From UHGV virus genome UHGV-0850785: a stretch of DNA of 13,466 bases; one strand, given 5' to 3'. Made by a program: the position numbers and the translations under genes. A model generated the notes under the pieces. That model was not told the DNA's origin. It did no database searches and saw only the letters and a program-made list of their open reading frames with translations. Positions 1-13,466 of the stretch are shown here, in pieces (within the stretch, counting starts at the first letter, position 1; every line of letters begins with the position of its first letter). The stretch is from a virus.

Positions 1-36
1 AAAATCCCCTTAGTTTTTAAGTGGGTTTTTGTATGA
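1..36 (+). CDS. 3' end (last 11 codons) of an upstream gene cut by the window edge; function unknown, by Mu gene order possibly the DNA-circulation/tail protein
   Basis: Frame 1 is open from position 1 to TGA at 34-36; this stop overlaps ATG 33-35 of the next gene (ATGA), the same coupling pattern seen elsewhere in this operon. Far too short to identify. Confidence 0.25.
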   Translation, partial: KIPLVFKWVFV

Positions 37-929
37 ATAGGAAAAAACTAAGGGTAACGATCACCCTGAACGGAAAAAACCAAAACGGTGAGCAAAAAGT
101 ATTCGAGAGCGAATACAATCAACTGTCATCGTCAGGGCTTCGGGTTTCTTGTACCATTGTTTCGGGCAATGGAAGTTTATCGCCTACTGCTAAAATTCAG
201 GTCTATGGATTGTCGCTAACTAAAATGCTTGCGCTTTTCCGTGTGCAGTGGAATACGCTAGATGCAATGCTAAATGAAGTTGCAATCGAAGCGGGCGAAG
301 AAGGCAAGCCGTTTGAGTTGATTTATAAGGGCAATATCACAACCGCAACAATTAATATGGAGTCCGCACCCGACCCATTTTTAGACATTGATAGCGTTGT
401 CGGATTGGTTGAGCAAATGAAGCCTGCTGAGCCTTTAGCTGTCATTAACGATGTTGACGTTGCGGAAGTGGTTAGAATTATCACTGTGGACAGGATGGGC
501 TATGAGTTCGAGAACAATGGCGTATCTCAAATTATCCCTGATGGTTTCATGTCTGAGGGTGCGAACCTAGAAACAATCCGACAGTTAGCGCATGATTATG
601 ATTTCGATTTATATATTGAGCATAAATTGATTGCCATCGCCCCACGAAACACTAAGCGCGAAATCACCATCCCTCAGATAACACCAAAAGGAGGTCTTGA
701 GGGCTACCCTACCCCCGATATTAAGGGTATATCGTTTAAATGCTTTTATACTCCCCTAGTTCGCTTCGGTGGAAACTTGGAAGTAAAAGATAGTATCATT
801 GAAGTCTGCAATGGTATATGGCGCGTCTACGGCTTGAAAACCATTCTTGAAAGTGGCGTTCCAAATGGGCGCTGGTCTATGGAAGTAAATGCAACTTGGG
901 CGAATAGTACCGATGCCGTTAGAAAATGA
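33..929 (+). CDS. probable baseplate hub protein (Mu gp44 / P2 gpD position)
   Basis: About 298 aa ORF immediately upstream of the gpV-W-J-I block. Function is inferred mainly from synteny, not a recognised motif. In-frame TAA at 18-20 bounds the ORF; the track start is GTG 21, but ATG 33 forms an ATGA overlap with the upstream frame, so I prefer 33. Confidence 0.55.
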   Translation: MNRKKLRVTITLNGKNQNGEQKVFESEYNQLSSSGLRVSCTIVSGNGSLSPTAKIQVYGLSLTKMLALFRVQWNTLDAMLNEVAIEAGEEGKPFELIYKGNITTATINMESAPDPFLDIDSVVGLVEQMKPAEPLAVINDVDVAEVVRIITVDRMGYEFENNGVSQIIPDGFMSEGANLETIRQLAHDYDFDLYIEHKLIAIAPRNTKREITIPQITPKGGLEGYPTPDIKGISFKCFYTPLVRFGGNLEVKDSIIEVCNGIWRVYGLKTILESGVPNGRWSMEVNATWANSTDAVRK

Positions 930-1554
930 TCAACAGACAACGAATTATAGAGCATCCCAGAGCGTTGGCGGTGCTGCTGAATTTGAAGCCATTGTGCGCT
1001 CACTGATGGGTAAGAATCACACCTTAATGTTGGGTGAGGTGATGGCTATCACTCAAGAAGCAAGCAGCACTGATGCGGTGGGCTATCTTTCCGTCCGTCC
1101 AATGGTTTTCATGATTGATGGTTCAAACAATAACTATGAACGTGCCACGATTACTAACGTGCCTTTCTTTCGATTGCAGGCGGGCGGTAATGCAGTCATT
1201 CTAAATCCAAAAGTGGGCGATATTGGTTTGATTGCTTATTGTGAACGTGACATTTCGATGGTGAAGCGCAGCAAGCAGCAAGCAGCGCCAAACTCTCGCA
1301 GGCAGTTTAATATCAATGATGCGGTGTACTTGGGCGGTATGCTGAACGGTGCGCCTACTCAATACATTCAGTTTCTTGACAGTGGCATGAACATTAAGAC
1401 GACTGGCGATGTAAACATTAACGGCTTAACGATTGCACCGAGTGGCATTTTAACGCTTGCAAATGGCGTTGTAGTCGATACGCATATTCACGACCAAGCA
1501 AACGACAGTGACGGAAACACAGAGCAACCAGTGGGGACACCAAGAAATGGCTAA
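889..1554 (+). CDS. baseplate assembly protein V / central spike (Mu gp45, P2 gpV family)
   Basis: 221 aa with an OB-fold-like motif (PKVGDIGLIAY) and a C-terminal His-x-His (THIH, 1483-1491) typical of spike apex metal sites. Sits between hub and W/J genes. Start is ambiguous: ATG 889 has a GGAAG only 3 nt upstream, and ATG 913 is an alternative. The gene overlaps the upstream stop by 41 or 17 nt. Confidence 0.7.
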   Translation: MQLGRIVPMPLENDQQTTNYRASQSVGGAAEFEAIVRSLMGKNHTLMLGEVMAITQEASSTDAVGYLSVRPMVFMIDGSNNNYERATITNVPFFRLQAGGNAVILNPKVGDIGLIAYCERDISMVKRSKQQAAPNSRRQFNINDAVYLGGMLNGAPTQYIQFLDSGMNIKTTGDVNINGLTIAPSGILTLANGVVVDTHIHDQANDSDGNTEQPVGTPRNG

Positions 1555-1903
1555 CACTCTTTTTTTACTTCCCGATACTTGGGACTTAACATTAGATTCA
1601 AGCGGAAATATTGCTATCGCTAGTGATGTTTATCAGCAAGCACAAGACATTGCTTCTGCTTGCCGTGTGTTTCGAGGTGACATGTATTTCGATAGTGCGG
1701 AAGGTATCCCCTACTCCGAGTCGATTCTAGGCAAATCGTCTTATCCACTCGGTCTATATCAGGCAGAATTACGCAAAGCAGCCCTATCGGTTGATGGCGT
1801 GGTTAGTGCTAATATAACATTCAATAAAATTGAAAATCGGGTGCTAAGCGGCATGATTAAATTTACAAATGATCAAGATCAGACAGGAGTTGTGAGCTTA
1901 TGA
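1547..1903 (+). CDS. small baseplate protein (gpW/gp25-like or Mu gp46-like)
   Basis: About 118 aa ORF between V and J. ATG 1547 overlaps the V stop (TAA 1552-1554) and the stop overlaps the J start (ATGA at 1900-1903). The track's GTG 1508 is a possible alternative start. Family assignment is by size and position only. Confidence 0.55.
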   Translation: MANTLFLLPDTWDLTLDSSGNIAIASDVYQQAQDIASACRVFRGDMYFDSAEGIPYSESILGKSSYPLGLYQAELRKAALSVDGVVSANITFNKIENRVLSGMIKFTNDQDQTGVVSL

Positions 1904-3090
1904 TTCCTGATATTGAAATCACAGAAAATGGGATTATTGCACCCACAACAGATGAAGTTCTCGCAGGGGTTTGGGAGGTTTTAAAGACCGCATTCGGTTC
2001 AAGTTTAAATACTGCAATGAATACCCCGCAAGGGCAGTTAGCAACATCAATTACAGCGATTATTCAGAATGAGCGAAACAATTGGATTCAATTAATGAAT
2101 CAGATTGACCCGCAGTATTCTACAGGAATTTGGCAAGATGCCATCGGTGAGCTGTACTTTATCACTCGCCAATCTCAAACGTATTCAATTGCTCAAATTC
2201 GATTGTACGGCTTGAATGGCACGGTAGTTCCGTCAGGCTATAAAATCAGTGACACGGCAGGGAATATTTGGGAAACGACAACACGGTTAATTATTGACAC
2301 GACTGGTTATATTGATGGTTATGTTCAGTGTACCGTTGCAGGGGCAATCAATGCAGCCATTGGCACAATTACAAGCATCATTGTGGCGCTCTCAGGTTTA
2401 GACCGTGCAACAAATACAAGCGCAGCCGTTGCAGGTGTCAATGCTGAAAGCACGGATAACTTCGAGCAGCGCAGACAAGAGTCGGTAGCAGTAAATGCAA
2501 AACTAACCGATGCTGCGGTACGTGGCGCTGTGGCAAATTTATCAAACGTGGTCGATGTTTGGGTGAAATCAAATCCAACCGATGCTACTGTCAATTTTGG
2601 CGTGACTAATTACCCAGTGACACGGAATACTTTGCTTTGTTCTGTCGTTGGCGGTGATGATGAAGATATTGCGTGGCAGATTTTAGTAAAAGCGGGAACT
2701 GGTTGCTCGTTCGCAGGGAATACGGAAGTCACTGTTTATGACAATGACACCTACACAGTAGACCCGCCTGATTATAAAGTGAAGTTTTTGCGTCCGACAT
2801 TAAAAACGGTTAAGTTTAAAATCACGCTTGAAAATAAAAACGAAATGTCACTGCAAGATGAAAAGGCAATGAAAACCGCCATTCTTAGTGCGCTAGAAAC
2901 AGGAAAAACGCGCGCTCGCATCGGTCAAAAGCTTAGGGCTTCGGCTTATGTTTACCCAGTTAGCAGTGCATCGGATTTAAGCTTGATTAGTGTTGAGGTA
3001 AGCTTCGATGGCACAACGTGGGCTAATTATTTAGAGTTGGGCGTTGATGAATACCCAGTAACTACTGAATTCGATATTGAGGTCGCATAA
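1900..3090 (+). CDS. baseplate J-like protein (Mu gp47 / P2 gpJ family)
   Basis: 396 aa, the size and operon position of baseplate wedge J proteins. ATGA overlap with the upstream gene and TAATG overlap with the downstream gene. Confidence 0.75.
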   Translation: MIPDIEITENGIIAPTTDEVLAGVWEVLKTAFGSSLNTAMNTPQGQLATSITAIIQNERNNWIQLMNQIDPQYSTGIWQDAIGELYFITRQSQTYSIAQIRLYGLNGTVVPSGYKISDTAGNIWETTTRLIIDTTGYIDGYVQCTVAGAINAAIGTITSIIVALSGLDRATNTSAAVAGVNAESTDNFEQRRQESVAVNAKLTDAAVRGAVANLSNVVDVWVKSNPTDATVNFGVTNYPVTRNTLLCSVVGGDDEDIAWQILVKAGTGCSFAGNTEVTVYDNDTYTVDPPDYKVKFLRPTLKTVKFKITLENKNEMSLQDEKAMKTAILSALETGKTRARIGQKLRASAYVYPVSSASDLSLISVEVSFDGTTWANYLELGVDEYPVTTEFDIEVA

Positions 3091-3728
3091 TGTTTGAAGT
3101 TAAAGATACGTTGATGTCGCAGTATGCAAATAGCCCTGCAATTGTCGGGATTATTGATGGAATAGCCGATGCACTAGACCCTAATGCCACCGTGGATGAA
3201 TTTTATTCATTGCTATGGAATCTAAGCACCGCAAAGACATGGGGCTTAGATATTTGGGGACGCATTGTTGGCATGAGTCGAAACGTGCAAATGAGCGACC
3301 CCGATGCCGTAACATTCGGTTTTAAAACTAACCCTGTGTCGCAAAACTTCACACCCTTTAATGTCGCACCGTTCAGCGCAAGCGGTGCAAAATTCAACAG
3401 TTATCGACTGCCTGATAACCTCTATAAAGAGCTAATCATTATCAAGGCAGCTTCAAATATTCTCTATGCAACTGCGCCCAATATTAATAAGTATCTTCAA
3501 ATGATTTTCAGTGAAAAGGCTTACTACTACATCACGGGTCACATGACAGCAGCTTATATATTTGAATTTGAATTAACCGCATTTCAGCGTTTAATTGTCT
3601 ATACTTTGAAGTTATTACCTGAGCCGTGCGGTGTGTTAATCTCTTATGAAGAAAGAGCAGTTTCGGAGATATTTGGATTCGATGGCACAGAATATGAAAC
3701 ATTTGATAACGGAGTATTTGTTCGATGA
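3090..3728 (+). CDS. tail protein I-like baseplate protein (Mu gp48 / P2 gpI position)
   Basis: 212 aa ORF directly after J and before the fiber. Coupled by TAATG (3088-3092) and ATGA (3725-3728) overlaps. Confidence 0.6.
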   Translation: MFEVKDTLMSQYANSPAIVGIIDGIADALDPNATVDEFYSLLWNLSTAKTWGLDIWGRIVGMSRNVQMSDPDAVTFGFKTNPVSQNFTPFNVAPFSASGAKFNSYRLPDNLYKELIIIKAASNILYATAPNINKYLQMIFSEKAYYYITGHMTAAYIFEFELTAFQRLIVYTLKLLPEPCGVLISYEERAVSEIFGFDGTEYETFDNGVFVR

Positions 3729-4441
3729 GCAATCCTGATGTTATGTGGGCAAAAGCATTTGCGTGGAATGCTACAAACAGAAATACGATTCAAGATGAGC
3801 GGCAATCGTCACAAGATGCACAAGATGCCACGCTCAATGAAGGCTTTCCGCTTATCACAATGACCGCCAAAAATGCAGGAGGTATCGCTCCGAACGGTCA
3901 AGATATGAACGGTGCGCTTTATGCGATTAGTTCAGACATGGTTCATCGCCAAAAAGGTCTACGAATCCAATTTGATTCTGCCTATGCGACAAAAATCGGA
4001 GGTTATGATCAAGGCTGTATTCTTGCGTCTAACGACTACACACGTGATTACATTAGCCTTATCCCGAACAATTTAACCGATCCAAACGGTAGCGGGACTG
4101 CGGGACGTTGGGCTATATATTCAGGCGCTGGCTCTATTGCTTCTGCAACTGCGAGCATTGCGGGCATTGTTAAGATTGTTGATAGTTTGTCGAGTACCGC
4201 AACGGATGCAGCATTAACTGCTAATCAAGGTAGAATTCTGAGTGGTCTCACACAGCCAGCTACCACTACAAATGTTGGTATTACTCGATTTGCAACTGCG
4301 ACAGAGGTGGCGAATAAGTCAACTACACAAGCAGCAATTACAGCAGCAAACGCCGCAACAGTAGCGCAAAGCACAGACCTTGGTAAACAGTTCCGCCGCA
4401 TTTTTAACCACTTCCTGATTGCTGGATCGGGATACTGCTGA
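3725..4441 (+). CDS. tail fiber protein, N-terminal (baseplate-attachment) region only; 3' end runs into the junction
   Basis: Follows the gpI-like gene, as the fiber does in Mu/P2. Contains the conserved fiber N-terminal motif pattern (GIVKIVDSLSSTATDAALTANQG ... GITRFATATEVANKSTTQAAIT). At 238 aa it is far shorter than typical fibers. The last ~20 codons (after ~4380) read as antisense of the convergent gene, and no fiber chaperone gene follows. Confidence 0.65.
   Translation: MSNPDVMWAKAFAWNATNRNTIQDERQSSQDAQDATLNEGFPLITMTAKNAGGIAPNGQDMNGALYAISSDMVHRQKGLRIQFDSAYATKIGGYDQGCILASNDYTRDYISLIPNNLTDPNGSGTAGRWAIYSGAGSIASATASIAGIVKIVDSLSSTATDAALTANQGRILSGLTQPATTTNVGITRFATATEVANKSTTQAAITAANAATVAQSTDLGKQFRRIFNHFLIAGSGYC
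4319..4441. other. breakpoint zone between the myovirus baseplate module and the podovirus structural module (best estimate ~4380)
   Basis: Convergent ORFs 3725..4441 (+) and 4319..6139 (-) overlap by 123 nt. Each ORF's terminal ~20 codons are the antisense reading of the other's protein-like sequence. Composition and strand polarity switch here. Confidence 0.5.
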
Positions 4442-6139
4442 AAGCTGCGTGATGACCTGCGAAGGCATTATGCCAGTCTGAGCCACAAGCCGAACAACCC
4501 CATCATGAGTGGAGGCATCATTAATACGAAAGTTCTGCGCCATTTCTGTGTAATCAGCAGCTTTCTGCATTGACTTGTTGCTTGGGTCTAATTTTTCACC
4601 TATTGTCAGCGCCTCATTGAATCTGCGTGAATCCCGTTGCGCCTGAATTGCTTCATTTGATCTCTGAAGCAATGCAGACAATTTTCCGTAAGCATCGAGT
4701 TTTAACGCATAGTGAGGATCGTTAACCTCAGGCTTCACTTTCTGCATTTCTTCTTGCTGCTGAGAAGGAGGCAAATACTGAATTGCCTGGAATATTCTCG
4801 CGTTATCAATCGCTATATCCAGTTGATTGATTATTTTATCTGCGTTTTTTCCATACCCCCTGATGATGGTCTCCTGAGCCGGTATATAATCTGGAACCTC
4901 ACCGTTATATAGCTGGGCCATGGTGTTATTAATAGCTGGCTCAAGCTGTTCTAATATTAACTTCCTTTGCTTTTCTATCTGACTATTAGCAAGGTTATCT
5001 ATTTGATAAATAGTCAGCGGATCCATTCCAGTTTTATTTTTTCTATATCGGGAAAGCCACCCTTGTGTTTCTGATGGAAGATTTCGGATAAATTCTTCTT
5101 CTGATATTTCACCTTTACGTGGATCACCGACTTTGGCGATCAGTTTATCCACGTTACCCATCCCCCAGTTATATGCTGCTCCGGTCAATATTTCGGAACC
5201 GTACTTACCATACAGTTGATTTACATAGTCACTGGCGAGCATTTCATGCTGTTGTTCGTCCGTAGGGTTGTATTCAACGCCACGCTTGGCCGCCAGTTCT
5301 TTTCCTGTGCCCGGCATTAACTGGTATTTCCCCTGGGCTCTCTCTCCAGAAGATGTTATCGGTCCCTCAAGAAGACTACCATCAGGATTAAAATGTCGAT
5401 CACCTGATTCAACAAGGCGTATGGCAAGCATGTCCATGCCTCCAGAATCATTTTTCTGAAACAGACCATTTAGCCATCCTTCTGGATTGGCAGCGGCATA
5501 ATTCTTCGCCCGCATTTCTGTGGCACTGCGATCATCACTTTCTATTTCTTCCAGAATGCGTTCTTGTGACCATCCCCTGGCAGCTCCATATCTGGCAATG
5601 GCTACCATTCTGGAATTTCTGGCTAAAGTGGCAGTTTGCGGGTCATTCCAGGCATCCGCTTCATTTTGTATCCATAATTTTCTCGTTGCCTGATATTGCT
5701 CATCTTCATAGGCATTTGTCTGCCCTATCTCATGTCTGAGAACTCCAGTACTGAACTGAATTTTCTGTGTTCTGGCTTGTTGCAAAAACATATTTCTTGC
5801 TGCTTCATCAGTCAATGAAGCAGCTATTTCTTCCACATCCTGATCAAATCCAGATATGTACTCTTGCCCCTTACCAATCGCATTTTTGCCTTGTTGTGCA
5901 TAAAAACCGGTTTGAGGGTTATAAAGACGTTCATTGCTGCGCTGATTAAGCTGAAGGATGGCATCCTGAGACAATGCAACATTCGCTTTCTGCCTGGCTT
6001 CACCATATGCCACCGCATACTGATCTGCGACATTCGCCAGCACCTGACCTGCTTGAGGAACATCGAAGGTCTGAAAACCACCGGTTTGCACACCACGACT
6101 TTGCACCTGGCGTCCGGATGTAGTAGGAACAACAGGCAT
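4319..6139 (-). CDS. internal virion protein with lytic transglycosylase (SLT) domain (T7 gp16-type ejection protein); C-terminal ~19 residues probably not native
   Basis: 606 aa. Residues ~240-330 carry the classic SLT signature (LVESGDRHFNP ... GKYQLMPGTG ... AAYNWGMGNV), with the putative catalytic Glu at residue 244 (coords ~5408-5410). Strong RBS GGAGG 6 nt upstream (6146-6150); ATG overlaps the stop of the upstream gene (ATGA). The terminal Cys-rich tail (VCALRYCCGVCCCNCCLCS, 4319-4378) is the antisense of GCA/GCT-rich fiber codons. Confidence 0.8.
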   Translation of the reverse strand: MPVVPTTSGRQVQSRGVQTGGFQTFDVPQAGQVLANVADQYAVAYGEARQKANVALSQDAILQLNQRSNERLYNPQTGFYAQQGKNAIGKGQEYISGFDQDVEEIAASLTDEAARNMFLQQARTQKIQFSTGVLRHEIGQTNAYEDEQYQATRKLWIQNEADAWNDPQTATLARNSRMVAIARYGAARGWSQERILEEIESDDRSATEMRAKNYAAANPEGWLNGLFQKNDSGGMDMLAIRLVESGDRHFNPDGSLLEGPITSSGERAQGKYQLMPGTGKELAAKRGVEYNPTDEQQHEMLASDYVNQLYGKYGSEILTGAAYNWGMGNVDKLIAKVGDPRKGEISEEEFIRNLPSETQGWLSRYRKNKTGMDPLTIYQIDNLANSQIEKQRKLILEQLEPAINNTMAQLYNGEVPDYIPAQETIIRGYGKNADKIINQLDIAIDNARIFQAIQYLPPSQQQEEMQKVKPEVNDPHYALKLDAYGKLSALLQRSNEAIQAQRDSRRFNEALTIGEKLDPSNKSMQKAADYTEMAQNFRINDASTHDGVVRLVAQTGIMPSQVITQLSAVSRSSNQEVVKNAAELFTKVCALRYCCGVCCCNCCLCS

Positions 6140-6714
6140 CAGTAACCTCCTATTTTGAATCGGGAGTCAGAATTCATAAAACCTGAGTTAGATAACATTG
6201 GCGTCCCACCACTAGATGTACTTCCTTTAGAGAACGGACTCCACGTCCCACCAAACATCTGGTACGCACCGTATGCCTTCAGAGGCGCAGTGAGCAATGT
6301 TGTTGCTGCTCCCACATTCCCCTGTTTACGGGCTGAACTGGCTTCTGCTTTATAGTTGGCAGCCTGAACCTGATAACCGTAAGCCTCGCGTTGCGCGTTA
6401 TTCACCGTCGTCAGCGAATCAAGAGCGCCAAACTGGGCAGTGTCGCCAAATATATCCAGCGCGTTACCTGTAGATAAATCAGCGCCGGTAGCCCCCATTG
6501 TCGCCGCCTGTGTACCAAGCCGCTGTCGGGTCTCTCTGCGCCGTTGCTCAGCTTCAGCGTTACCTCTGTTTATTGCATCATTTGCCTGAGCTGTGGCTAT
6601 ATCTGCGTTCGCTTCTGCAACCTTCGAGGCATACTTTCCCTGTTGGTACTGGGTGTATGCCTGAATGCCACTCATGGCGAGCATTGCGCCACCAGCAATA
6701 ACCGGATCGCACAT
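6139..6714 (-). CDS. putative internal virion protein (T7 gp14 position); Gly/Ala/Gln/Thr-rich
   Basis: 191 aa with a hydrophobic N-terminal segment (PVIAGGAMLAMSGIQAY) followed by a low-complexity region. GGAGA RBS 7 nt upstream; TAATG overlap with the upstream gene and ATGA overlap with the SLT gene. Function is from position only. Confidence 0.55.
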   Translation of the reverse strand: MCDPVIAGGAMLAMSGIQAYTQYQQGKYASKVAEANADIATAQANDAINRGNAEAEQRRRETRQRLGTQAATMGATGADLSTGNALDIFGDTAQFGALDSLTTVNNAQREAYGYQVQAANYKAEASSARKQGNVGAATTLLTAPLKAYGAYQMFGGTWSPFSKGSTSSGGTPMLSNSGFMNSDSRFKIGGY

Positions 6715-7178
6715 TATTTTCTCTCCATGTGAAATCTGTGGAAATTAAGACCAAGAGCACCATAAGGCGCGGCTTCTTCAAGCCTGAATCCAAGCCAGTG
6801 CAGCCATGCTTTGGCAACATGGTTTCGCTCGTCGACGTAGTTTTCCAGGCGCGGATAAACTGCCAGCATCTGCTGCAATACCGGGCGGCAGTGGCGCAGA
6901 AATGTCTTCTGATATTTTTCAATACGGCTGGTCCCGACCAGCCAGGGCGTACCATTGCCACCGATCATTGACGCCGGAGATACACCAAACATGGTTACCA
7001 GTTCTCTGTTCGCGAACCCTGACCAGGCCATAGTCGCAGTGCGCAGACCAACACGCAGCGCATCTTCGGTAGTCATCAGCGATACCGCATACAGTTCGTC
7101 AATATCAGCCTGACGAACATCCGGCAAAATCATCTGAAGATGCTCTTCGGTTGCGGGAATAATTTGAACATCGATCAT
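6714..7178 (-). CDS. hypothetical virion protein (T7 gp13 position)
   Basis: 154 aa ORF. ATGA overlap with the tail tubular B stop (7176-7180); GGGGGA 5 nt upstream. No motif I can name with confidence. Confidence 0.5.
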   Translation of the reverse strand: MIDVQIIPATEEHLQMILPDVRQADIDELYAVSLMTTEDALRVGLRTATMAWSGFANRELVTMFGVSPASMIGGNGTPWLVGTSRIEKYQKTFLRHCRPVLQQMLAVYPRLENYVDERNHVAKAWLHWLGFRLEEAAPYGALGLNFHRFHMERK

Positions 7179-9649
7179 CAGAATCCCCCAACAGTAAGGC
7201 GAGGAATAACGGCAAGAACAGACAGCGGCAACGGGTCAAGCTGACGGATTTTTACACGTCCGTTTTTGCCCCAGTTACTGTCCAGCTTCACTTCTACTTT
7301 TCCGGTAGCATCATCAACAGGATCATCGTAGAACTCGAATTCACGCTGTGGATATTCGTACCATTTACCGCCGGGCGTAGTCGCCCAGATGCCGCGACTG
7401 GCATTCACAACCAGAGTAACGGACGGGATCACCTGTTTTTTGTCCAGCAGCGTTTCCTGTCCGTTAATGTTGATATCCAACGTTTCGAATTCAGCAGTTA
7501 TTGGCAGGCCGATGTGCACAACAGCCCCCGGTGATTCCAGCGTGACGGCACCTCCGGAAACTACTTTCTGTGGTTCCACGTTCGCATCAGAGAGGATGTT
7601 TACGGTCTGACCTTCAAGATGAGACAAGCCTCCAAATGTCCGGAGCGCCATCTGCCAGTTCGTGGTGGCCACATTCCTGAGGGATGGCGGGACGTTCCTG
7701 TTAGCACGAACCACTACAGCGGTATTGCTGGTTACAGAAATAATGTCGCAACGTAATTCTTTTGACACTTCATCGCCAGTATCAGGATCAGTTCCGGTAT
7801 AAGGGAACTGTAGTTGCGCACCGACATCACTACTGGTGAAGTACGCACCACCAGAAACACTGATTGTATATTCCGCACGGTAATCCCATTCACCAGAACC
7901 ACCAGTGATGGTCATCGTTCTGTCAGACGTATTTCTTCCATCATAGCTAAGGCCAGAATCAACAAAGAAAGCATCTTCATCGCTGGTAAATAAACGGCTG
8001 GACAGTCTCTCGATGTATCTCACTGTTTGCCCGTTAACGGTTCGGTTAACGACGAAATACACCGCATCTTCATTGCCTTCGCTGATACTGCATGTGCTTT
8101 CATATTTTCCGGTACTGGATTGTGGTGCCCATGCAAAAACCTGCTGATCACGCAAATAGGTCATCACCAGTAATTTACCGTCATCACGAATGCAGAAGGC
8201 GCTGGAGTAAGGGACAATAGAGAAGCACCAGTCAACAATGCTGTGCTTCTGAAAAAGATGATTGGCAAGGATGGTCAGGTCGTTCCCCTGATAGCCGTCA
8301 ACATCGAATGAATAGGCCAGATCACGGACAACACTGCCTTTCTCCTGGACGAACAGAGCAATATTCGCCACGGCAATTGGTGGGACGTTGCTTGAGCCAT
8401 TTGATCCCTGAGAGCTGAATGCAAATGATGATGGGGTTAACACTTTGTTCTGGTCGCCGGTGATGACGTACTCACCTCCGGAAGTCAGCGCCACCAGCGA
8501 ACCAACATCAATCAGGTGGCGGATCTCATTAACCTGACGCCCGGCATAGGTGTAGATAATTCTGTCGTCATCCTGCGTAGGATTGCTTTTGCCAAAATCC
8601 TTATAATCCCCAGTACGGCTGGCCCAGATAGTCTGAGGGAACGCTGTCGATGCGGCGAAGTAAAGACGTTGTTGATAATAAACAACAGTGCCAGGATAAC
8701 CGTTAACACTATTCCAGGCATATTTAGCCCATTTATAGCTGGCATTATCCTCGCCAACTACCTGCGAAGGGATATAGGAAATCACCTCAGCAGTTGCAGT
8801 AGTTCCATTTGCAGCAGAGATACGGGCAATGCCAAAACCACTGTGCAGATACTCCCACTCAATGCCAGTATCATCATCACCGGATCCGCCCCAGCCATCC
8901 CATGATGTTCCTTCTGTATGCGAAGGGCGCAAAGTGCCTGTTTTGCCTGCTGTAACGGCGCGATAGTAGTTACTGTCTGCACGGCGAATATCGCCAATCG
9001 ATGTACTCTTACTTGTTTCCCATACCGGCACTGAATCCACTGCAGGCTGTTCCAGATAGAACAATTTGCCTACCTGCTCCGCGCCAAAAATAGAGGCGCT
9101 TGCCGTTAACGTAATTGTCCCGGTGCTGGCGCTGGCATAAACCGTCACTGACTCGTCAATATTGATATCTTCAAATGGACCGTTCTTCGTTACCACATCA
9201 ACCAGTTGCCAGTTGTCATGAGCATATCGGCGCAACTCTTTCGGCGGGTATGCAGGGTGAACCAGCGTAAGCACGTCGGCGCTTTGCGTGAATTTAATTC
9301 GGAACAGATCGGCTTCAGTATATGGCGTGGCAATTTCATAAATAACATTGCTGCTGTTCAGCACCAACGCACCATCTTTGATAACGCGCATGTACTGGTG
9401 TCCGAACTCCAGAGCATAAGTCTGAACCGTCGAGAACTGGAACGGGATCAGGCGGCATTTCCGATTTGGGTATTTGGCGGCACCGACAAAACGCGTACCA
9501 GGTCGATTCTCAACTCCGCCATACTGCCGCACGATAAAGTTATCGCACTTGCGCAATGCCACCTGGTACTTCGCCATGTCGATACGACCGTACAACGACG
9601 GTCCAATTTCACCACCGGCAAAGCTGGGCTGGATCCAACTGATAGCCAT
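7178..9649 (-). CDS. tail tubular protein B / nozzle (T7 gp12 family)
   Basis: 823 aa. N-terminus MAISWIQPSFAGGEIGPSLYGRIDMAKYQ ... ENRPGTRF matches the pattern I associate with gp12-like nozzle proteins. Size and position directly after a gp11-like gene fit; ATGA overlap at 9647-9651. Confidence 0.75.
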   Translation of the reverse strand: MAISWIQPSFAGGEIGPSLYGRIDMAKYQVALRKCDNFIVRQYGGVENRPGTRFVGAAKYPNRKCRLIPFQFSTVQTYALEFGHQYMRVIKDGALVLNSSNVIYEIATPYTEADLFRIKFTQSADVLTLVHPAYPPKELRRYAHDNWQLVDVVTKNGPFEDINIDESVTVYASASTGTITLTASASIFGAEQVGKLFYLEQPAVDSVPVWETSKSTSIGDIRRADSNYYRAVTAGKTGTLRPSHTEGTSWDGWGGSGDDDTGIEWEYLHSGFGIARISAANGTTATAEVISYIPSQVVGEDNASYKWAKYAWNSVNGYPGTVVYYQQRLYFAASTAFPQTIWASRTGDYKDFGKSNPTQDDDRIIYTYAGRQVNEIRHLIDVGSLVALTSGGEYVITGDQNKVLTPSSFAFSSQGSNGSSNVPPIAVANIALFVQEKGSVVRDLAYSFDVDGYQGNDLTILANHLFQKHSIVDWCFSIVPYSSAFCIRDDGKLLVMTYLRDQQVFAWAPQSSTGKYESTCSISEGNEDAVYFVVNRTVNGQTVRYIERLSSRLFTSDEDAFFVDSGLSYDGRNTSDRTMTITGGSGEWDYRAEYTISVSGGAYFTSSDVGAQLQFPYTGTDPDTGDEVSKELRCDIISVTSNTAVVVRANRNVPPSLRNVATTNWQMALRTFGGLSHLEGQTVNILSDANVEPQKVVSGGAVTLESPGAVVHIGLPITAEFETLDININGQETLLDKKQVIPSVTLVVNASRGIWATTPGGKWYEYPQREFEFYDDPVDDATGKVEVKLDSNWGKNGRVKIRQLDPLPLSVLAVIPRLTVGGF

Positions 9650-10254
9650 CAGGACAACCTCGCAATGGTAAACTCGTCAACCGGTGGCAGTGGTTCCTGT
9701 GATTCATTCTGGCTATGCGAGCCAGCACTAAGAATCACGCGATTGTACATATTGAGGGCAAACGTACCGAGGTCTGCATTCCCAGTCAGCGCCATGTTAA
9801 TAGCTGCCGCAAGACGCCAGGCCAACGCCTCCATAAAAATGGCATCAAACATGTTCACATCTGAAACGCGAGAGACATACTTGAGCCATGCCTGCGGCTG
9901 GTCTGTGTAGATCAACTTTCCTGTTCCGTTGGTGTCTGCACCAACTTCGTACTGAACGCGCATTGCTGCTGTTGGATTGCGTACACCAGGAAGCATAATT
10001 TCAGTAATGCGCAGACAATCTGACGGGTACTGATACGCATATTCCCAGTCAGGCGGTGGATTGCTCGTATCTGCAAGCGCCACGCGTTTGGTAGCAAAGT
10101 TCCAGTCAAAATCAGAAAGCACAGCATCACGGCAGGCCTCAAAGTGCAGCGAACATTCCCCCGCTTCCTTGCTGGCTTCCGTCAGGCTGTTAATGCTGCG
10201 GCTATTGCCAATATTGGACAGCGCACGATTGCAGATCTCTACTACAGAGGCCAT
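9649..10254 (-). CDS. tail tubular protein A / adaptor (T7 gp11 family)
   Basis: 201 aa, similar in size to T7 gp11 (~196 aa), immediately upstream of the gp12-like gene. TAATG overlap with the upstream gene at 10252-10256. Confidence 0.7.
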   Translation of the reverse strand: MASVVEICNRALSNIGNSRSINSLTEASKEAGECSLHFEACRDAVLSDFDWNFATKRVALADTSNPPPDWEYAYQYPSDCLRITEIMLPGVRNPTAAMRVQYEVGADTNGTGKLIYTDQPQAWLKYVSRVSDVNMFDAIFMEALAWRLAAAINMALTGNADLGTFALNMYNRVILSAGSHSQNESQEPLPPVDEFTIARLS

Positions 10255-10577
10255 TACTCACCCCCATTGCCGTACAGGGTTTCAGCCGCTGATTTTTCTA
10301 CATCCCCGGAAACAGGAGCGATCGCCATATCAGTGATCTGCAGATCGGCGCTGCGATTAACCCCATCGTCAGTTTCTCTGGCAGACAGGCCTCGAATAAC
10401 AGCCTTTGCAGTTATCATCACTTCTGTTCCGACGCCCTGAGGTTGCGCCTTCAGCTTATTCAATGTGTCGTTATTAAGAGTGATGCACAGCCCCCACGGG
10501 TATTCATCGCGAGTTCTGGTTTCTCCGCTCTCATCCTGGTAGCTGTCAGTGCCGGTTTTGAGGTTTACGAGTTCCAT
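10254..10577 (-). CDS. hypothetical small structural protein (~107 aa)
   Basis: ORF directly upstream of and overlapping the gp11-like gene. The track start GTG 10583 lies inside the AGGAG RBS (10583-10587); ATG at 10575-10577 has 5-nt spacing, so I prefer it. Confidence 0.5.
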   Translation of the reverse strand: MELVNLKTGTDSYQDESGETRTRDEYPWGLCITLNNDTLNKLKAQPQGVGTEVMITAKAVIRGLSARETDDGVNRSADLQITDMAIAPVSGDVEKSAAETLYGNGGE

Positions 10578-10594
10578 ATACACTCCTGCAATAA

Positions 10595-10610
10595 AGGGGC
10601 CGAAGCCCCT
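10595..10610 (-). terminator. intrinsic-terminator-like hairpin (6-bp G/C-rich stem, UUCG tetraloop) followed by UUUAUU
   Basis: Minus-strand sequence AGGGGC-TTCG-GCCCCT then TTATTG, in the 44-nt gap between the 111-aa and 107-aa genes. The downstream RBS follows immediately, suggesting an attenuator rather than a full stop. Confidence 0.5.
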
Positions 10611-10627
10611 TGTCTGATCCGCGAGGC

Positions 10628-10963
10628 TTACACGCCCAGTTCTTTACGCTTATCTGCGATCTTCTCGCGGAGCGTTTCGGCTTTGGCGTTATGGTGTGGC
10701 TTCTCGTTAAAGAGCAATTCGTACTCTTCACGGAGCTTATCCAGTTCACCATCATCTGACACATCGTTGATGATTTTGGTGCTGGTTGCTGCCATTGACA
10801 CCTTTCCTGCAATTTTTGCTTTTGCCTGTCTGGCTGCATCGTTAACAGGTTCCAGTGCGCTACCAGGCTCACCTTCGTATTCGATTTCTGCCCCCTCCGG
10901 CCACAGAGTGTTATGGATATGAGAGAGGCGCAGAACGCGGTATCTTGGTTTCTCACCTGACAT
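10628..10963 (-). CDS. hypothetical small head-associated protein (~111 aa), highly charged C-terminal helix
   Basis: ORF between the 145-aa gene and the hairpin. The track start GTG 10972 lies within the RBS AAGGTGA; ATG 10961-10963 has 5-nt spacing. C-terminus is Lys/Glu-rich (DKLREEYELLFNEK ... REKIADKRKELGV). Confidence 0.5.
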   Translation of the reverse strand: MSGEKPRYRVLRLSHIHNTLWPEGAEIEYEGEPGSALEPVNDAARQAKAKIAGKVSMAATSTKIINDVSDDGELDKLREEYELLFNEKPHHNAKAETLREKIADKRKELGV

Positions 10964-10973
10964 CGATATCACC

Positions 10974-11411
10974 TTAACCAGTTACTTTTGAGCGGATCGG
11001 ATACGGCGTATTGGCATCAACATCAAGACTGATACCAGCAGTGAATTCGCCAGCCGTTAGTGGGCCAGTTGCGACGGAGTAGTTAACACGCAGATATCGC
11101 TGAACACCGGCAGGCACCTTTGCAGAAACAACTCGTTTACCTGCTGTCAGGGCGGTCTTTGCCAGTGCGCCACTATCATAAATAGTGGTCCATGAGCTGT
11201 TATTCTCACTCGTCTGCAACTGGATGTTTACAGTTGCATCACCGCTTGCCGCGGCGGCTGTGTTAACCAGCGCCCAAAACTCAAGCGGGTAACCCACGCC
11301 GATATCACGACGTTTTCCGTCAATTGGACCGAGATCGATTACGTCAGTAGAAGCCGCGGTATTCGTAACCGCCTGAGCTTCGGAGAACATCAACAGTTTG
11401 TCGGTGATCAT
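10974..11411 (-). CDS. hypothetical protein, possible capsid decoration/accessory protein (145 aa)
   Basis: First gene after the major capsid gene, with a GGAG RBS 7 nt upstream. Thr/Ala/Ser/Val-rich composition suggests a beta-rich fold. Function is from position only. Confidence 0.5.
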   Translation of the reverse strand: MITDKLLMFSEAQAVTNTAASTDVIDLGPIDGKRRDIGVGYPLEFWALVNTAAAASGDATVNIQLQTSENNSSWTTIYDSGALAKTALTAGKRVVSAKVPAGVQRYLRVNYSVATGPLTAGEFTAGISLDVDANTPYPIRSKVTG

Positions 11412-11462
11412 CTTCTTTCTCCATTAGTGGGTCTGTTACGACCAACAGGTTAATAACAGGCG

Positions 11463-12455
11463 TTACACCACGCGGGCTTCTGTTTCCAGAAGCGCATCAG
11501 TTTCACGGATTGGTACACCACGGAATGAAGTCCACCACTCGCCTTCAGTCTCTTTTACGCTGATAGCCAGAGATGTTTTCTCCAGAGATTGCAGATCAAG
11601 AGCCTGGCCTACAGTGCGGTTCATGTAGAACACCGGGCGACCCATGCCACGGTTTGGAATGCGATGCAGTGCTTTAACCATCAACTTCGCAATATTTGCG
11701 GCAGAGGAAGGTTCTGAAAGATTGCTGACATCGATGTTTGCAATGCGAACAACATAACGCCAGTCACGCAGAGCAAGTCCGTTGTCCCATTTGTAATGGG
11801 TACGGTAGCCTTCGTACTTGCCGCCATTAACATCTTCCAGTGTCACCTGGCCTTTATCTTCCATCTGGATTCCAGCCTTCTGCCCTTTCGGGAAGATGCC
11901 ATGCACGGTGTTTTCGCCCCACACCACTAACCAGATTGAGGTGTTATCTGTACCCGTGCCACCAGCATCAATGATGTTCTGAGCATTACCCGCAGACAGG
12001 CTGGAATAGCGGGAGGACAGTCCCATAAACTGCTGAGGGTTAACGCTGGAATCACCATAAAACAACGTCTGCGCCATCTGCTGATTCATCGCTTCAATAA
12101 ATGCGCGGTCTTCAGACAGGCGGAATTCGGCGGTATTACCGTTCAGATCAGCCAGTGACTTATCGACTTCAGCATAGGTTTCCAGCATTCCAACGGAATC
12201 GGTGACCTGCACTGTGGTTGATTTGCTTGGCTGTACGCCATAGTTCAGCAAACGCCAGGTGGCTGAAGGTAAACCAGAACGAATGGTGGTTCGGTGTCCG
12301 GTAGGAAGGTTCCCTTCGACAAAAGGCATATCCTGAAGGATCGGGTTAGTTTGACCGAGAAGCTCGATAATCTTATCGACTTTCCCGTTTGGATCGACGC
12401 GCTTACCCCAGTCAGCCAGCGTTAGCGCAGTTAAGCCTTTAACAGCCATTGTCAT
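11463..12455 (-). CDS. major capsid protein
   Basis: 330 aa, directly downstream of the scaffold gene. The N-terminal region (LADWGKRVDPNG ... ILQDMPFVEGNLPTGH ... AFIEAMNQQMAQTLFYG) resembles podovirus major capsid proteins I recall. The second ATG (12447-12449) has better RBS spacing (GAGAGGA 8 nt upstream), so the true start may be 12449. Confidence 0.8.
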   Translation of the reverse strand: MTMAVKGLTALTLADWGKRVDPNGKVDKIIELLGQTNPILQDMPFVEGNLPTGHRTTIRSGLPSATWRLLNYGVQPSKSTTVQVTDSVGMLETYAEVDKSLADLNGNTAEFRLSEDRAFIEAMNQQMAQTLFYGDSSVNPQQFMGLSSRYSSLSAGNAQNIIDAGGTGTDNTSIWLVVWGENTVHGIFPKGQKAGIQMEDKGQVTLEDVNGGKYEGYRTHYKWDNGLALRDWRYVVRIANIDVSNLSEPSSAANIAKLMVKALHRIPNRGMGRPVFYMNRTVGQALDLQSLEKTSLAISVKETEGEWWTSFRGVPIRETDALLETEARVV

Positions 12456-12463
12456 TTCCTCTC

Positions 12464-13159
12464 TTATTTGCCATAGAGCACTTCGGCCGCACTACGCTGG
12501 CCTTCATTACCACCGGTGACCATGCCATCTTCAGACATCGCCTTTCCGATTTTCACGAACGTTTTGACCAGATCAGGGTGATTACCCAGCCCGGTGGTGT
12601 TCAGATATTCTTTGAGCTCAGGTGTCCCGAACTGGTCAAGCGCACGCTGTGCGGCGCTAAGGTTAGAAATCAACTTGTCGCCACCGATTTCTTTGTCAGC
12701 TTTTACATCCGCAGCCCACTGCTCGGTTGTTTTCTGCCAGGCTTCTGCCTGGCGCTGCTGAACACCTGCCAGAATCTTCGGATAAGCATCAACCAGCTTT
12801 TGCGCTTGCTCGTTGGTCAGGTTTAGTTCTCGAGCCACCGGCTCGAACTCCTTCAACGCTTCTGTATCCAGCTCTACGCCTTCGGCAGCCTGAAACTCGT
12901 ACTTCTCAGGCGCACCCTCTGGTTTATCGCCGTCCTTTTTTTCATCCTGCTTATCGTTTTCAGACTTTTTGTCATCAGCAGGTTTATCGCCATCAGCAAC
13001 AGGTTGTGGCTTATCACCTTCCTGTTGTGATGGATCACCAACTGGAGCAGGGTTATCACCTGCAGGCGCTGACGGTTCTGACGCAGCCGGAGCTGCTCCA
13101 CCATCGACTGGTTGCTCATTGCAAAGACGGCGATACAGCAAACGCTCAAATAAATTCAT
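12464..13159 (-). CDS. scaffolding protein
   Basis: ~231 aa immediately upstream of the capsid gene. Acidic Pro/Asp/Lys-rich low-complexity N-terminal half with GDKP repeats, then a helical region. The track start GTG 13165 sits in the AGGAG RBS; ATG 13157-13159 has 5-nt spacing. Confidence 0.7.
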   Translation of the reverse strand: MNLFERLLYRRLCNEQPVDGGAAPAASEPSAPAGDNPAPVGDPSQQEGDKPQPVADGDKPADDKKSENDKQDEKKDGDKPEGAPEKYEFQAAEGVELDTEALKEFEPVARELNLTNEQAQKLVDAYPKILAGVQQRQAEAWQKTTEQWAADVKADKEIGGDKLISNLSAAQRALDQFGTPELKEYLNTTGLGNHPDLVKTFVKIGKAMSEDGMVTGGNEGQRSAAEVLYGK

Positions 13160-13161
13160 GA

Positions 13162-13458
13162 TCACTCCTGTTCACTGGCCTCTTTGGCCATCTTCAAATA
13201 CTGTTCAGGGCAATGCGCCATAACGCGCTGAAACAGTTCCAGCGCCAGATTGCGTTGCCCCTCATTAAATGCCATTGCCATAGCGTCCATCGGTGAGATA
13301 GCGGAAAACACACGGCCTTTCTCCAGCACCGACCAGACAACGCGACGCCCCTGTTCACTGCTCATGACAAAGCGAATGTCATCAATTTCACGCTGCGCCA
13401 TGTCACGTTGCTTACGGGCGTTTTCTTCTTTCAGTTGATCGTCTTCGTAATCTGTCAT
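13162..13458 (-). CDS. hypothetical small acidic protein (98 aa) between the presumed portal gene and the scaffold gene
   Basis: ORF whose stop (TGA 13162-13164) lies in the scaffold RBS/spacer. Its ATG (13456-13458) overlaps a TGA (13455-13457) that would end a minus-strand gene entering from the right edge (ATGA). No recognisable motif. Confidence 0.5.
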   Translation of the reverse strand: MTDYEDDQLKEENARKQRDMAQREIDDIRFVMSSEQGRRVVWSVLEKGRVFSAISPMDAMAMAFNEGQRNLALELFQRVMAHCPEQYLKMAKEASEQE

Positions 13459-13466
13459 TGTGATTG

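What the first reader, a model, noticed from the sequence alone, without database searches (positions are those of the whole stretch)
4319..7178. Compact ejection/internal-core set with a centrally placed transglycosylase domain
T7 uses gp14, gp15 and gp16 (SLT at the N-terminus of gp16), about 2,260 aa together. Here, after a gp13-position protein (154 aa), there is one gp14-position protein (191 aa) and a single 606-aa protein whose SLT signature sits mid-protein (residues ~240-330), followed by a more AT-rich Lys/Asn/Ile/Gln-rich helical region. Either the core is unusually compact, or the protein is truncated by the junction and originally extended further.
Basis: partly seen in the sequence, partly recalled or inferred. 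Interest (0 to 1): 0.45.

Follow-up and report, generated by a model that had tools for sequence, protein, structure and literature searches.

The report
Phage injection gene cut by chimeric join
The "compact" phage DNA-injection gene set is not real: the window joins two unrelated phage sequences. The join cuts a well-known 902-905-residue cell-wall-cutting injection protein at residue 585 and removes the large gene that follows it.

Summary
The three minus-strand ORFs (154, 191 and 606 aa) and the SLT signature are present as described. The 606-aa "protein" is not a natural product.

- **Two blocks.** Window 1-4384 matches virome contig CYGL01000279.1 with one mismatch; it carries an Acinetobacter-type myovirus baseplate and fibre module. 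Window 4384-13466 is 99.98% identical to epsilon15/TL-2011b-like E. coli prophage DNA.
- **The join.** The blocks meet tail-to-tail at 4383/4384 with a 1-nt overlap. Both source contigs run uninterrupted through that point.
- **The 606-aa ORF.** It is residues 1-585 of a 902-905-aa protein plus 21 Cys-rich residues read from the antisense strand of the cut fibre gene.
- **Homologue lengths.** All 117 full-coverage homologues among the 120 best are 890-906 aa; none is about 600 aa.
- **Missing gene.** Relatives carry a 1004-1007-aa T7-gp16-like gene next, without an SLT domain. The window has no trace of it.
- **Natural size.** The natural set is 154 + 191 + 905 + 1004 aa, which is T7-sized.
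- **SLT position.** In the full protein the SLT domain sits in the N-terminal third. An SLT on the gp15-position protein is already documented.

Interest is low.

The parts
6714..7178 (-). 154-aa internal virion protein, T7 gp13 / epsilon15 gp13 family. Complete gene.
   Evidence: phrog_308 E 9e-62. T7 gp13 hits the same PHROG at E 1e-42. A same-length gene sits at this position in TL-2011b, E. coli 13E0780 and epsilon15.
6139..6714 (-). 191-aa virion core protein, T7 gp14 family (predicted outer-membrane pore former). Complete gene.
   Evidence: Pfam PF24072 T7_gp14 at 33.7 bits against a 27-bit cut-off. phrog_418 E 1e-72. RefSeq names the identical-length E. coli gene 'virion core protein, T7 gp14 family'.
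4385..6139 (-). Codons 1-585 of a 902-905-aa SLT-domain internal virion (ejection) protein in the gp15 position. This is the genuine part of the 606-aa ORF.
   Evidence: 582/588 residues identical to TL-2011b gp37 (905 aa), diverging after F585. tblastn places residues 1-585 at 6139..4385. phrog_1044 profile positions 1-612 of 900 are matched.
5105..5437 (-). Lytic transglycosylase (SLT) domain, residues about 235-345. The putative catalytic E244 lies at 5408-5410.
   Evidence: PF01464 on residues 263-342, E 2e-7. P. aeruginosa Slt structures match at E 0.002. E244/S245, G270/Q273 and A322/Y323/N324/G326 are invariant in 17 homologues. hhalign lines residues 220-347 up with the T7 gp16 SLT region 12-129 (weak, E 0.0034).
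4319..4384 (-). Artefactual tail of the ORF: 21 codons plus a stop read from the antisense strand of the fibre gene after the join.
   Evidence: No homology to gp37 beyond residue 585. 9 of 21 residues are Cys, against 0 of 585 before the join. This DNA is identical to the CYGL01000279.1 fibre gene.
4383..4385 (.). Chimeric join between the two source sequences. It has a 1-nt overlap (T4384) and no flanking repeats.
   Evidence: The left source matches through 4384 and the right source from 4384; both sources continue with their own sequence past this point. No direct or inverted repeats flank it. A 36-mer spanning the join is absent from the viral, genome and metagenome collections.
3725..4441 (+). 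Tail-fibre gene of the unrelated myovirus block, itself cut at codon 219/220 of 308. The last 19 codons are antisense read-through of the SLT gene.
   Evidence: In the source contig the gene is 308 aa and is followed by a 944-aa gene. It is 302-313 aa in IMG/VR relatives. PHROG tail-fibre hits cover only the N-terminal part of 445-504-position profiles.
7178..10254 (-). Context upstream of the internal-protein genes: an 823-aa tail protein and a 201-aa tail protein, in the positions of epsilon15 gp12 and gp11 (gp11 is T7 tail-tubular-A-like).
   Evidence: phrog_376 and phrog_394 'tail protein'. epsilon15 gp11 carries an HHpred note to T7 tail tubular protein A. The gene order is the same in TL-2011b and in E. 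coli prophages.

Best explanation
**What the window is.** It is a chimera of two unrelated phage sequences joined tail-to-tail at 4383/4384.
- The right block (4384-13466, minus-strand genes) is the structural operon of an epsilon15/phiV10/TL-2011b-like temperate E. coli podovirus.
- The left block (1-4384) is the baseplate and fibre module of an Acinetobacter-type myovirus.
- The join cuts the podovirus gene for its 902-905-aa SLT-bearing internal virion protein after codon 585. It also deletes the following 1004-1007-aa T7-gp16-like gene.
- The apparent 606-aa protein and the "compact core" are consequences of the join.

**Origin of the join (inferred).** Both sources occur as separate, uninterrupted contigs in one metagenomic or viromic assembly. 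So the join is most probably a sequence artefact: a chimeric contig, an amplification chimera, or a constructed splice. I cannot tell which of these it is.

**How the natural module works (inferred from T7 and epsilon15 work, not shown here).**
- The gp13-like protein (154 aa) is an internal virion protein.
- The gp14-like protein (191 aa) leaves the capsid first and forms the outer-membrane pore.
- The 905-aa protein occupies the gp15 position. It extends the channel across the periplasm and cuts peptidoglycan with its SLT domain (catalytic E244).
- The gp16-like protein (1004 aa, no SLT) reaches and spans the inner membrane.
For: **Join and sources**
- Megablast identity to TL-2011b and to 45 E. 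coli genomes stops exactly at window 4384.
- Window 1-4384 differs from NCBI GCA_001292545.1 contig CYGL01000279.1 by one base.
- Window 4384-13466 has 2 mismatches in 9083 nt to E. coli contig AASIJY010000045.1. It has 1 mismatch in 7070 nt to CYGL01000890.1, a contig of the same assembly.
- All these sources continue with their own genes past the join point.
- Both genes at the join are cut mid-ORF.
- GC shifts from about 0.43 to about 0.51 between the blocks.
- CYGL01 is an assembly called 'HumMal' with contigs named Ma_F259_Contig_N, so it is not an isolate genome.
- The closest cultured relatives of the left block are Acinetobacter myophages.
- The 606-aa product is not on record among 153 billion gene positions.

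**Natural gene lengths**.

**Family assignments**.

**Missing parts absent from the window**.

**Mechanism by analogy**: the review PMC8954989 gives the roles of T7 gp14/15/16 and states that the SLT domain can swap to the gp15 homologue. PMC12391199 describes the epsilon15 core exiting the capsid to form a periplasmic tube.
Against: - I have no read-level data, so a real recombinant molecule in the sample is not formally excluded.
- The window differs from the same-assembly contigs at two single bases (22 and 10362). It also extends 2 kb beyond contig CYGL01000890.1. So it is not a plain concatenation of those two deposited contigs.
- The mechanistic roles are by analogy only. The 905-aa protein shows no significant sequence similarity to T7 gp15 (hhalign E 0.11, probability 0.5%).
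- The AlphaFold model was poor (pLDDT 61.8, pTM 0.27). The fold search gave only generic helical-repeat hits.
Confidence: 0.93

Rival explanations
1. Natively compact ejection set: the 606-aa protein is complete and, with the 191-aa protein, does the work of T7 gp14, gp15 and gp16 together.
For: The ORF has a start and a stop, and it follows the gp13- and gp14-like genes with typical overlapping junctions.
Against: - The last 21 residues are antisense fibre-gene sequence.
- Full-coverage homologues are all 890-906 aa.
- The PHROG profile is 900 positions long and only 1-612 are matched.
- The nearly identical source contigs continue to 902-905 aa and then carry a 1004-1007-aa gene.
Confidence: 0.01
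2. The join is a real biological event. Illegitimate recombination or deletion between two co-resident phage genomes produced a defective molecule that was then sequenced.
For: - Both source sequences come from the same sample assembly, so the molecules could have met.
- The window is not simply the two deposited contigs pasted together: it has two single-base differences and a longer right arm.
Against: - The hosts differ. The closest cultured relatives of one block infect Acinetobacter; the other block is an E. coli prophage.
- Both genes are destroyed, and the convergent orientation yields no functional phage.
- There is only a 1-nt overlap, with no repeats, att site or IS signature.
- The join is absent from the viral, genome and metagenome collections and from 5,426 complete E. 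coli genomes.
- Both sources are also assembled intact in the same sample.
Confidence: 0.05

Closest known systems
Escherichia phage TL-2011b gp35-gp38 (NC_019445), with identical-order prophage genes in E. coli (for example strain 13E0780, WP_080029405-WP_080029408)
   Same: - 98-99% nucleotide identity across the whole right block.
- Same order: tail protein, 154-aa protein, gp14-like protein, SLT protein.
- The SLT protein is identical at 582 of the first 585 residues.
   Different: - There the SLT protein is 905 aa and is followed by a 1004-aa gp16-like protein. The window stops at codon 585.
- TL-2011b's gp14-like protein is 181 aa with a different C-terminal tail. The 191-aa form is the one found in E. 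coli prophages.
Salmonella phage epsilon15 gp13-gp17 (AY150271; Uetakevirus)
   Same: - Same gene order and sizes for gp11 (201 aa), gp12 (825 aa), gp13 (154 aa) and gp14 (180 aa).
- gp15 (842 aa) is annotated as a putative lytic transglycosylase and shares the N-terminal roughly 250 aa (43% identity) and the SLT region.
   Different: - Beyond the SLT domain the proteins diverge.
- epsilon15 has gp16 (634 aa) and gp17 (918 aa), with no BLASTP similarity to TL-2011b gp37 or gp38 in the pairs compared (gp38 against gp17, gp37 against gp16).
T7 internal core / ejectosome (gp13, gp14, gp15, gp16)
   Same: - gp13 and gp14 homology is detectable (phrog_308; PF24072).
- The gp16-like protein of the relatives is in the same PHROG as T7 gp16 (phrog_342).
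- The total size of the natural set is similar: 191 + 905 + 1004 = 2100 aa against 2261 aa.
   Different: - The SLT domain sits at residues about 235-345 of the gp15-position protein, not at the N-terminus of gp16.
- The gp16-like protein lacks profile positions 1-202.
- No significant sequence similarity to T7 gp15.
K1E / K1-5 gp35 and SP6 gp36 (gp15-like ejection proteins of 978-982 aa; muralytic activity reported for K1E and K1-5)
   Same: The peptidoglycan-degrading activity is carried by the gp15-position protein rather than by gp16. The review PMC8954989 describes this as a known domain swap.
   Different: I did not compare the sequences here. Those phages are lytic Autographiviridae-type; this is a temperate epsilon15-like lineage.

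Membership tests
T7 gp14 family (Pfam PF24072) | Score above Pfam's gathering threshold over most of the profile | tested here: met
   The 191-aa protein scores 33.7 bits against a 27-bit cut-off, residues 1-167 on profile positions 1-182 of 187. RefSeq gives the same family name to the identical-length E. coli gene.
T7 gp14 family (Pfam PF24072) | Ejected into, and forms a pore in, the outer membrane | not testable with these tools
   Needs virion and ejection biochemistry or cryo-ET.
T7 gp13 family (phrog_308) | Profile match shared with T7 gp13, and position immediately upstream of the gp14-like gene | tested here: met
   The window's 154-aa protein hits phrog_308 at E 9e-62 and T7 gp13 hits it at E 1e-42. 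The synteny is shown.
SLT / family-1 lytic transglycosylase (Pfam PF01464) | Profile match above threshold and a conserved catalytic Glu (E-S motif) with the downstream G..Q and AYNxG motifs | tested here: met
   31 bits against 21.3. E244-S245, G270/Q273 and A322-Y-N-W-G326 are invariant in 17 homologues. P. aeruginosa Slt structures are matched.
SLT / family-1 lytic transglycosylase (Pfam PF01464) | Muralytic activity producing 1,6-anhydromuropeptides | not testable with these tools
   Needs a zymogram or HPLC of digestion products, with an E244 mutant as control.
T7 gp15 family (phrog_1339) | Detectable sequence or profile homology to T7 gp15 | tested here: not met
   T7 gp15 hits only phrog_1339, and the SLT protein does not hit it. 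hhalign of the 17-sequence family profile against T7 gp15 gives E 0.11, probability 0.5%. The Foldseek search of the low-confidence model found no T7 gp15 among the 50 best hits shown, and no hit reached E <= 0.001.
T7 gp15 family (phrog_1339) | Gene position between the gp14-like and gp16-like genes | tested here: met
   This holds in TL-2011b and in E. coli prophages. In the window itself the gp16-like gene is missing.
T7 gp16 family (phrog_342) | A gp16-like gene present downstream of the SLT gene | tested here: not met
   It is present in relatives (TL-2011b gp38, 1004 aa, phrog_342 E 5e-210, profile positions 203-1225). It is absent from the window: tblastn finds no hit.
   Of the 120 best homologues, all with 100% query coverage are 890-906 aa. 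The shorter ones are partial records or come from short contigs.

The most novel reading that the evidence does not exclude
The join at 4383/4384 is a real DNA molecule. On this reading, an illegitimate recombinant between an Acinetobacter-type myovirus and an E. coli epsilon15-like podovirus co-occurred in one gut sample and was captured by sequencing, rather than being produced by assembly, amplification or construction.
Probability: 0.04. Interest if true: 0.25.

Novelty: not a real feature. Interest (0 to 1): 0.06.

Why it matters
It matters mainly as a caution. A podovirus with a much reduced ejectosome would have been interesting, because the T7-type core is thought to need an outer-membrane pore, a periplasmic tunnel and an inner-membrane component. 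Here the reduction comes from a chimeric join, and the natural module is T7-sized (154 + 191 + 905 + 1004 aa).

The real biology underneath is an SLT domain carried by the gp15-position protein, paired with a gp16-like protein that lacks the SLT part. This is a clean example of the domain swapping already described for podovirus ejection proteins. It is not new.

Tried and rejected
- **Join in public collections.** I searched a 36-mer spanning the join in viral contigs, genome contigs and metagenome contigs and found no match. An exact look-up of the 606-aa product found nothing on record.
- **Origin of the left block.** The search for related loci on genome contigs with the fibre N-terminus found nothing. 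The source was found instead by exact protein look-up.
- **Solved structures by sequence.** The gp14-like, gp13-like and gp16-like proteins have no detectable match to solved structures by sequence.
- **Profile comparison with T7.** The comparison with T7 gp15 gave an insignificant alignment: residues 577-724 against gp15 489-616, E 0.11. It lies just beyond the cut and cannot be used as evidence. The match to the T7 gp16 SLT region was weak (E 0.0034, probability 9%).
- **Structure prediction.** AlphaFold2 on the 905-aa homologue with a 17-sequence, low-diversity alignment gave pLDDT 61.8 and pTM 0.27.
- **Fold search.** Foldseek against the PDB returned only generic alpha-solenoid proteins, with nothing at E <= 0.001. 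I discarded these hits.
- **Other signals at the join.** There are no tRNA genes, no Rfam families and no repeats flanking the join. An integrase-, IS- or att-mediated junction was therefore rejected.
- **Natural prophage deletion in E. coli.** I rejected this because none of the 5,426 complete E. coli genomes carries the left block.
Full report
**1. The observation**

The window has plus-strand genes from 21 to 4441 and minus-strand genes from 4319 to 13458. The two sets overlap convergently over 4319-4441. The three ORFs of the finding are there:
- 6714..7178, 154 aa
- 6139..6714, 191 aa
- 4319..6139, 606 aa

Their family assignments hold up:
- The 154-aa protein is in phrog_308 (E 9e-62), the PHROG that T7 gp13 also hits.
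- The 191-aa protein passes the Pfam gathering threshold for the T7 gp14 family, PF24072 (33.7 against 27 bits).
- The 606-aa ORF carries a genuine SLT domain. PF01464 matches residues 263-342 at E 2e-7, and P. aeruginosa Slt structures are matched.
- The motifs E244-S245, G270..Q273 and A322-YNWG326 are invariant in 17 homologues.
- Residues 361-585 are indeed lower in GC (0.427) and richer in K/N/I/Q (0.32). They are predicted helical.

**2. The 606-aa ORF is not a natural protein**

- Megablast identity to Escherichia phage TL-2011b and to 45 complete E. coli genomes stops exactly at window 4384.
- The ORF matches TL-2011b gp37 (905 aa) at 582 of 588 residues and diverges after F585.
- The remaining 21 residues contain 9 cysteines, against none in the first 585. 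They are read from the antisense strand of a tail-fibre gene.
- The PHROG profile of the family (phrog_1044) is 900 positions long, and the ORF matches only positions 1-612.
- In a search of 5.8 billion proteins, every one of the 120 best homologues that covers the whole query is 890-906 aa. The only shorter entries are a record labelled "partial" and fragments from short contigs.

No homologues of 590-610 aa exist.

**3.

- In TL-2011b, in E. coli 13E0780 and in E. coli contig AASIJY010000045.1, the SLT gene is followed directly by a 1004-1007-aa gene.
- That protein hits phrog_342, "internal virion protein with endolysin domain", at E 5e-210. This is the PHROG of T7 gp16.
- The match covers only profile positions 203-1225 of 1235, so the protein is a gp16 homologue without the N-terminal SLT part.
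- Neither that protein nor residues 586-905 of the SLT protein has any tblastn match in the window.
- The natural set is 154 + 191 + 905 + 1004 aa. The gp14- to gp16-equivalents sum to 2100 aa, against 2261 aa in T7. The core is not compact.
- The SLT domain occupies about 26-38% of the 905-aa protein, so it is not central.

**4. What the junction is**

- The left block (1-4384) differs by one base (position 22) from NCBI assembly GCA_001292545.1, contig CYGL01000279.1. In that contig the fibre gene runs on to 308 aa and is followed by a 944-aa gene, a holin and an M15 peptidase.
- IMG/VR relatives at about 84% nucleotide identity have 302-313-aa fibre genes.
- The closest cultured relatives of the left block are Acinetobacter myophages. 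Baseplate J is 65.8% identical to that of phage Acjo_20.
- The right block (4384-13466) has 2 mismatches in 9083 nt to E. coli contig AASIJY010000045.1. It has 1 mismatch in 7070 nt to CYGL01000890.1, a contig of the same assembly as the left block.
- Every source continues with its own sequence through the join point. The join shows a 1-nt overlap (T4384) and no flanking repeats.
- Both genes at the join are cut mid-ORF, and GC shifts from about 0.43 to about 0.51.
- A 36-mer across the join is absent from the viral, genome and metagenome collections. The chimeric product is not on record.
- A paper lists CYGL01000085.1 as "Assembly HumMal, Ma_F259_Contig_623" (PMC10888812). The assembly is therefore metagenomic or viromic, not an isolate. 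My recollection that it is a human gut virome is from memory and unverified.

I conclude that the join is a sequence artefact: a chimeric contig, an amplification chimera, or a constructed splice. I cannot tell which. A real recombinant molecule is not formally excluded, and I put it at about 5%.

**5. How the natural module most likely works (inference by analogy)**

- In T7, gp14 forms the outer-membrane pore and gp15 forms the periplasmic tunnel. gp16 contributes an N-terminal transglycosylase and an inner-membrane and cytoplasmic part (review PMC8954989).
- In epsilon15 the internal core leaves the capsid and forms a tube across the periplasm (PMC12391199, citing Chang et al. 2010).
- Here the gp13- and gp14-like proteins are true homologues of their T7 counterparts, and so is the gp16-like protein of the relatives.
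- The 905-aa protein occupies the gp15 position and carries the SLT activity.
- Homology of the 905-aa protein to T7 gp15 is not demonstrable. hhalign gives E 0.11, the two share no PHROG, the structure model was poor and the fold search was uninformative.
- So this module works like a T7 ejectosome by position and by partial homology. I do not file the SLT protein as a member of the gp15 family.

**6. Comparison with what is known**

- An SLT or lysozyme activity on the gp15-like protein instead of gp16 is explicitly described for K1E and K1-5, and is summarised as a known domain swap (PMC8954989).
- epsilon15 gp15 (842 aa) is already annotated as a putative lytic transglycosylase.
- The window's genes are 98-100% identical to known phage and prophage genes.
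- Nothing here is new, and the distinctive claim of compactness is an artefact.

**7. Verdict**

- Novelty: not a real feature. The underlying genes are already known.
- Interest: 0.06.

Noticed in passing
window 1-4384 (left block): This block is an Acinetobacter-type myovirus baseplate module: hub, spike-like protein, gpW-like, baseplate J, DUF2612 wedge and fibre N-terminus. It differs by one base from virome contig CYGL01000279.1. It has no match at megablast sensitivity in cultured-phage records beyond one 173-nt stretch (75.6% identical, Acinetobacter phage vB_AbaM_IME284). The fibre-proximal part tested (3900-4383) has no match in 5,426 complete E. coli genomes.
   Followed up: yes
window 22 and window 10362: These are the only differences from the same-assembly contigs. 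Position 22 is T here and G in CYGL01000279.1. Position 10362 is C here and A in CYGL01000890.1 and in the E. coli contig; it lies inside the 109-aa capsid-staple-like ORF 10254..10583. The window also extends about 2 kb beyond the end of CYGL01000890.1. So the window is not a plain paste of the two deposited contigs.
   Followed up: partly
L016 (CYGL01000890.1) 5315-8022, outside the window: In this deposited virome contig the SLT gene is split into 783-aa and 121-aa ORFs by a 1-nt indel near codon 758. The reference for comparison is the 902-aa E. coli version. It is either an assembly error or a pseudogene.
   Followed up: partly
window 6150-6233 (3' end of the gp14-like gene): This is a natural mosaic boundary. 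phiV10-type phages are 98-99% identical from 7300 down to 6233, and then their SLT proteins share only about 45% identity over the first 248 aa. TL-2011b's gp14-like protein is 181 aa, with a different C-terminal tail from the 191-aa form here. GC also drops from 0.51-0.54 to 0.40-0.48 across the SLT gene.
   Followed up: partly
L012/L017 (epsilon15 AY150271) compared with the review PMC8954989, Table 1: The review lists the epsilon15 ejection proteins as gp11 (229 aa), gp12 (499 aa) and gp13 (708 aa), and calls them "small". The GenBank record gives gp11 as 201 aa (tail-tubular-A-like), gp12 as 825 aa, gp13 as 154 aa, gp14 as 180 aa and gp15 as 842 aa (SLT). The sizes do not match, so the table's epsilon15 row may refer to other genes or another phage.
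   Followed up: partly
L001 9849-12863 (TL-2011b gp38) compared with L017 (epsilon15 gp16, gp17): The distal half of the ejection module differs within this phage group. TL-2011b-type phages carry a T7-gp16-like protein (phrog_342). epsilon15 carries gp16 (phrog_1145) and gp17, with no BLASTP similarity to TL-2011b gp37 or gp38 in the pairs compared (gp38 against gp17, gp37 against gp16).
   Followed up: partly
window 6714-7178: The epsilon15 homologue of the 154-aa protein carries a GenBank note of an HHpred match to GNAT acetyltransferases. Pfam finds nothing for this protein at E <= 0.01. A possible acetyltransferase fold for the T7 gp13 family was not examined.
   Followed up: no
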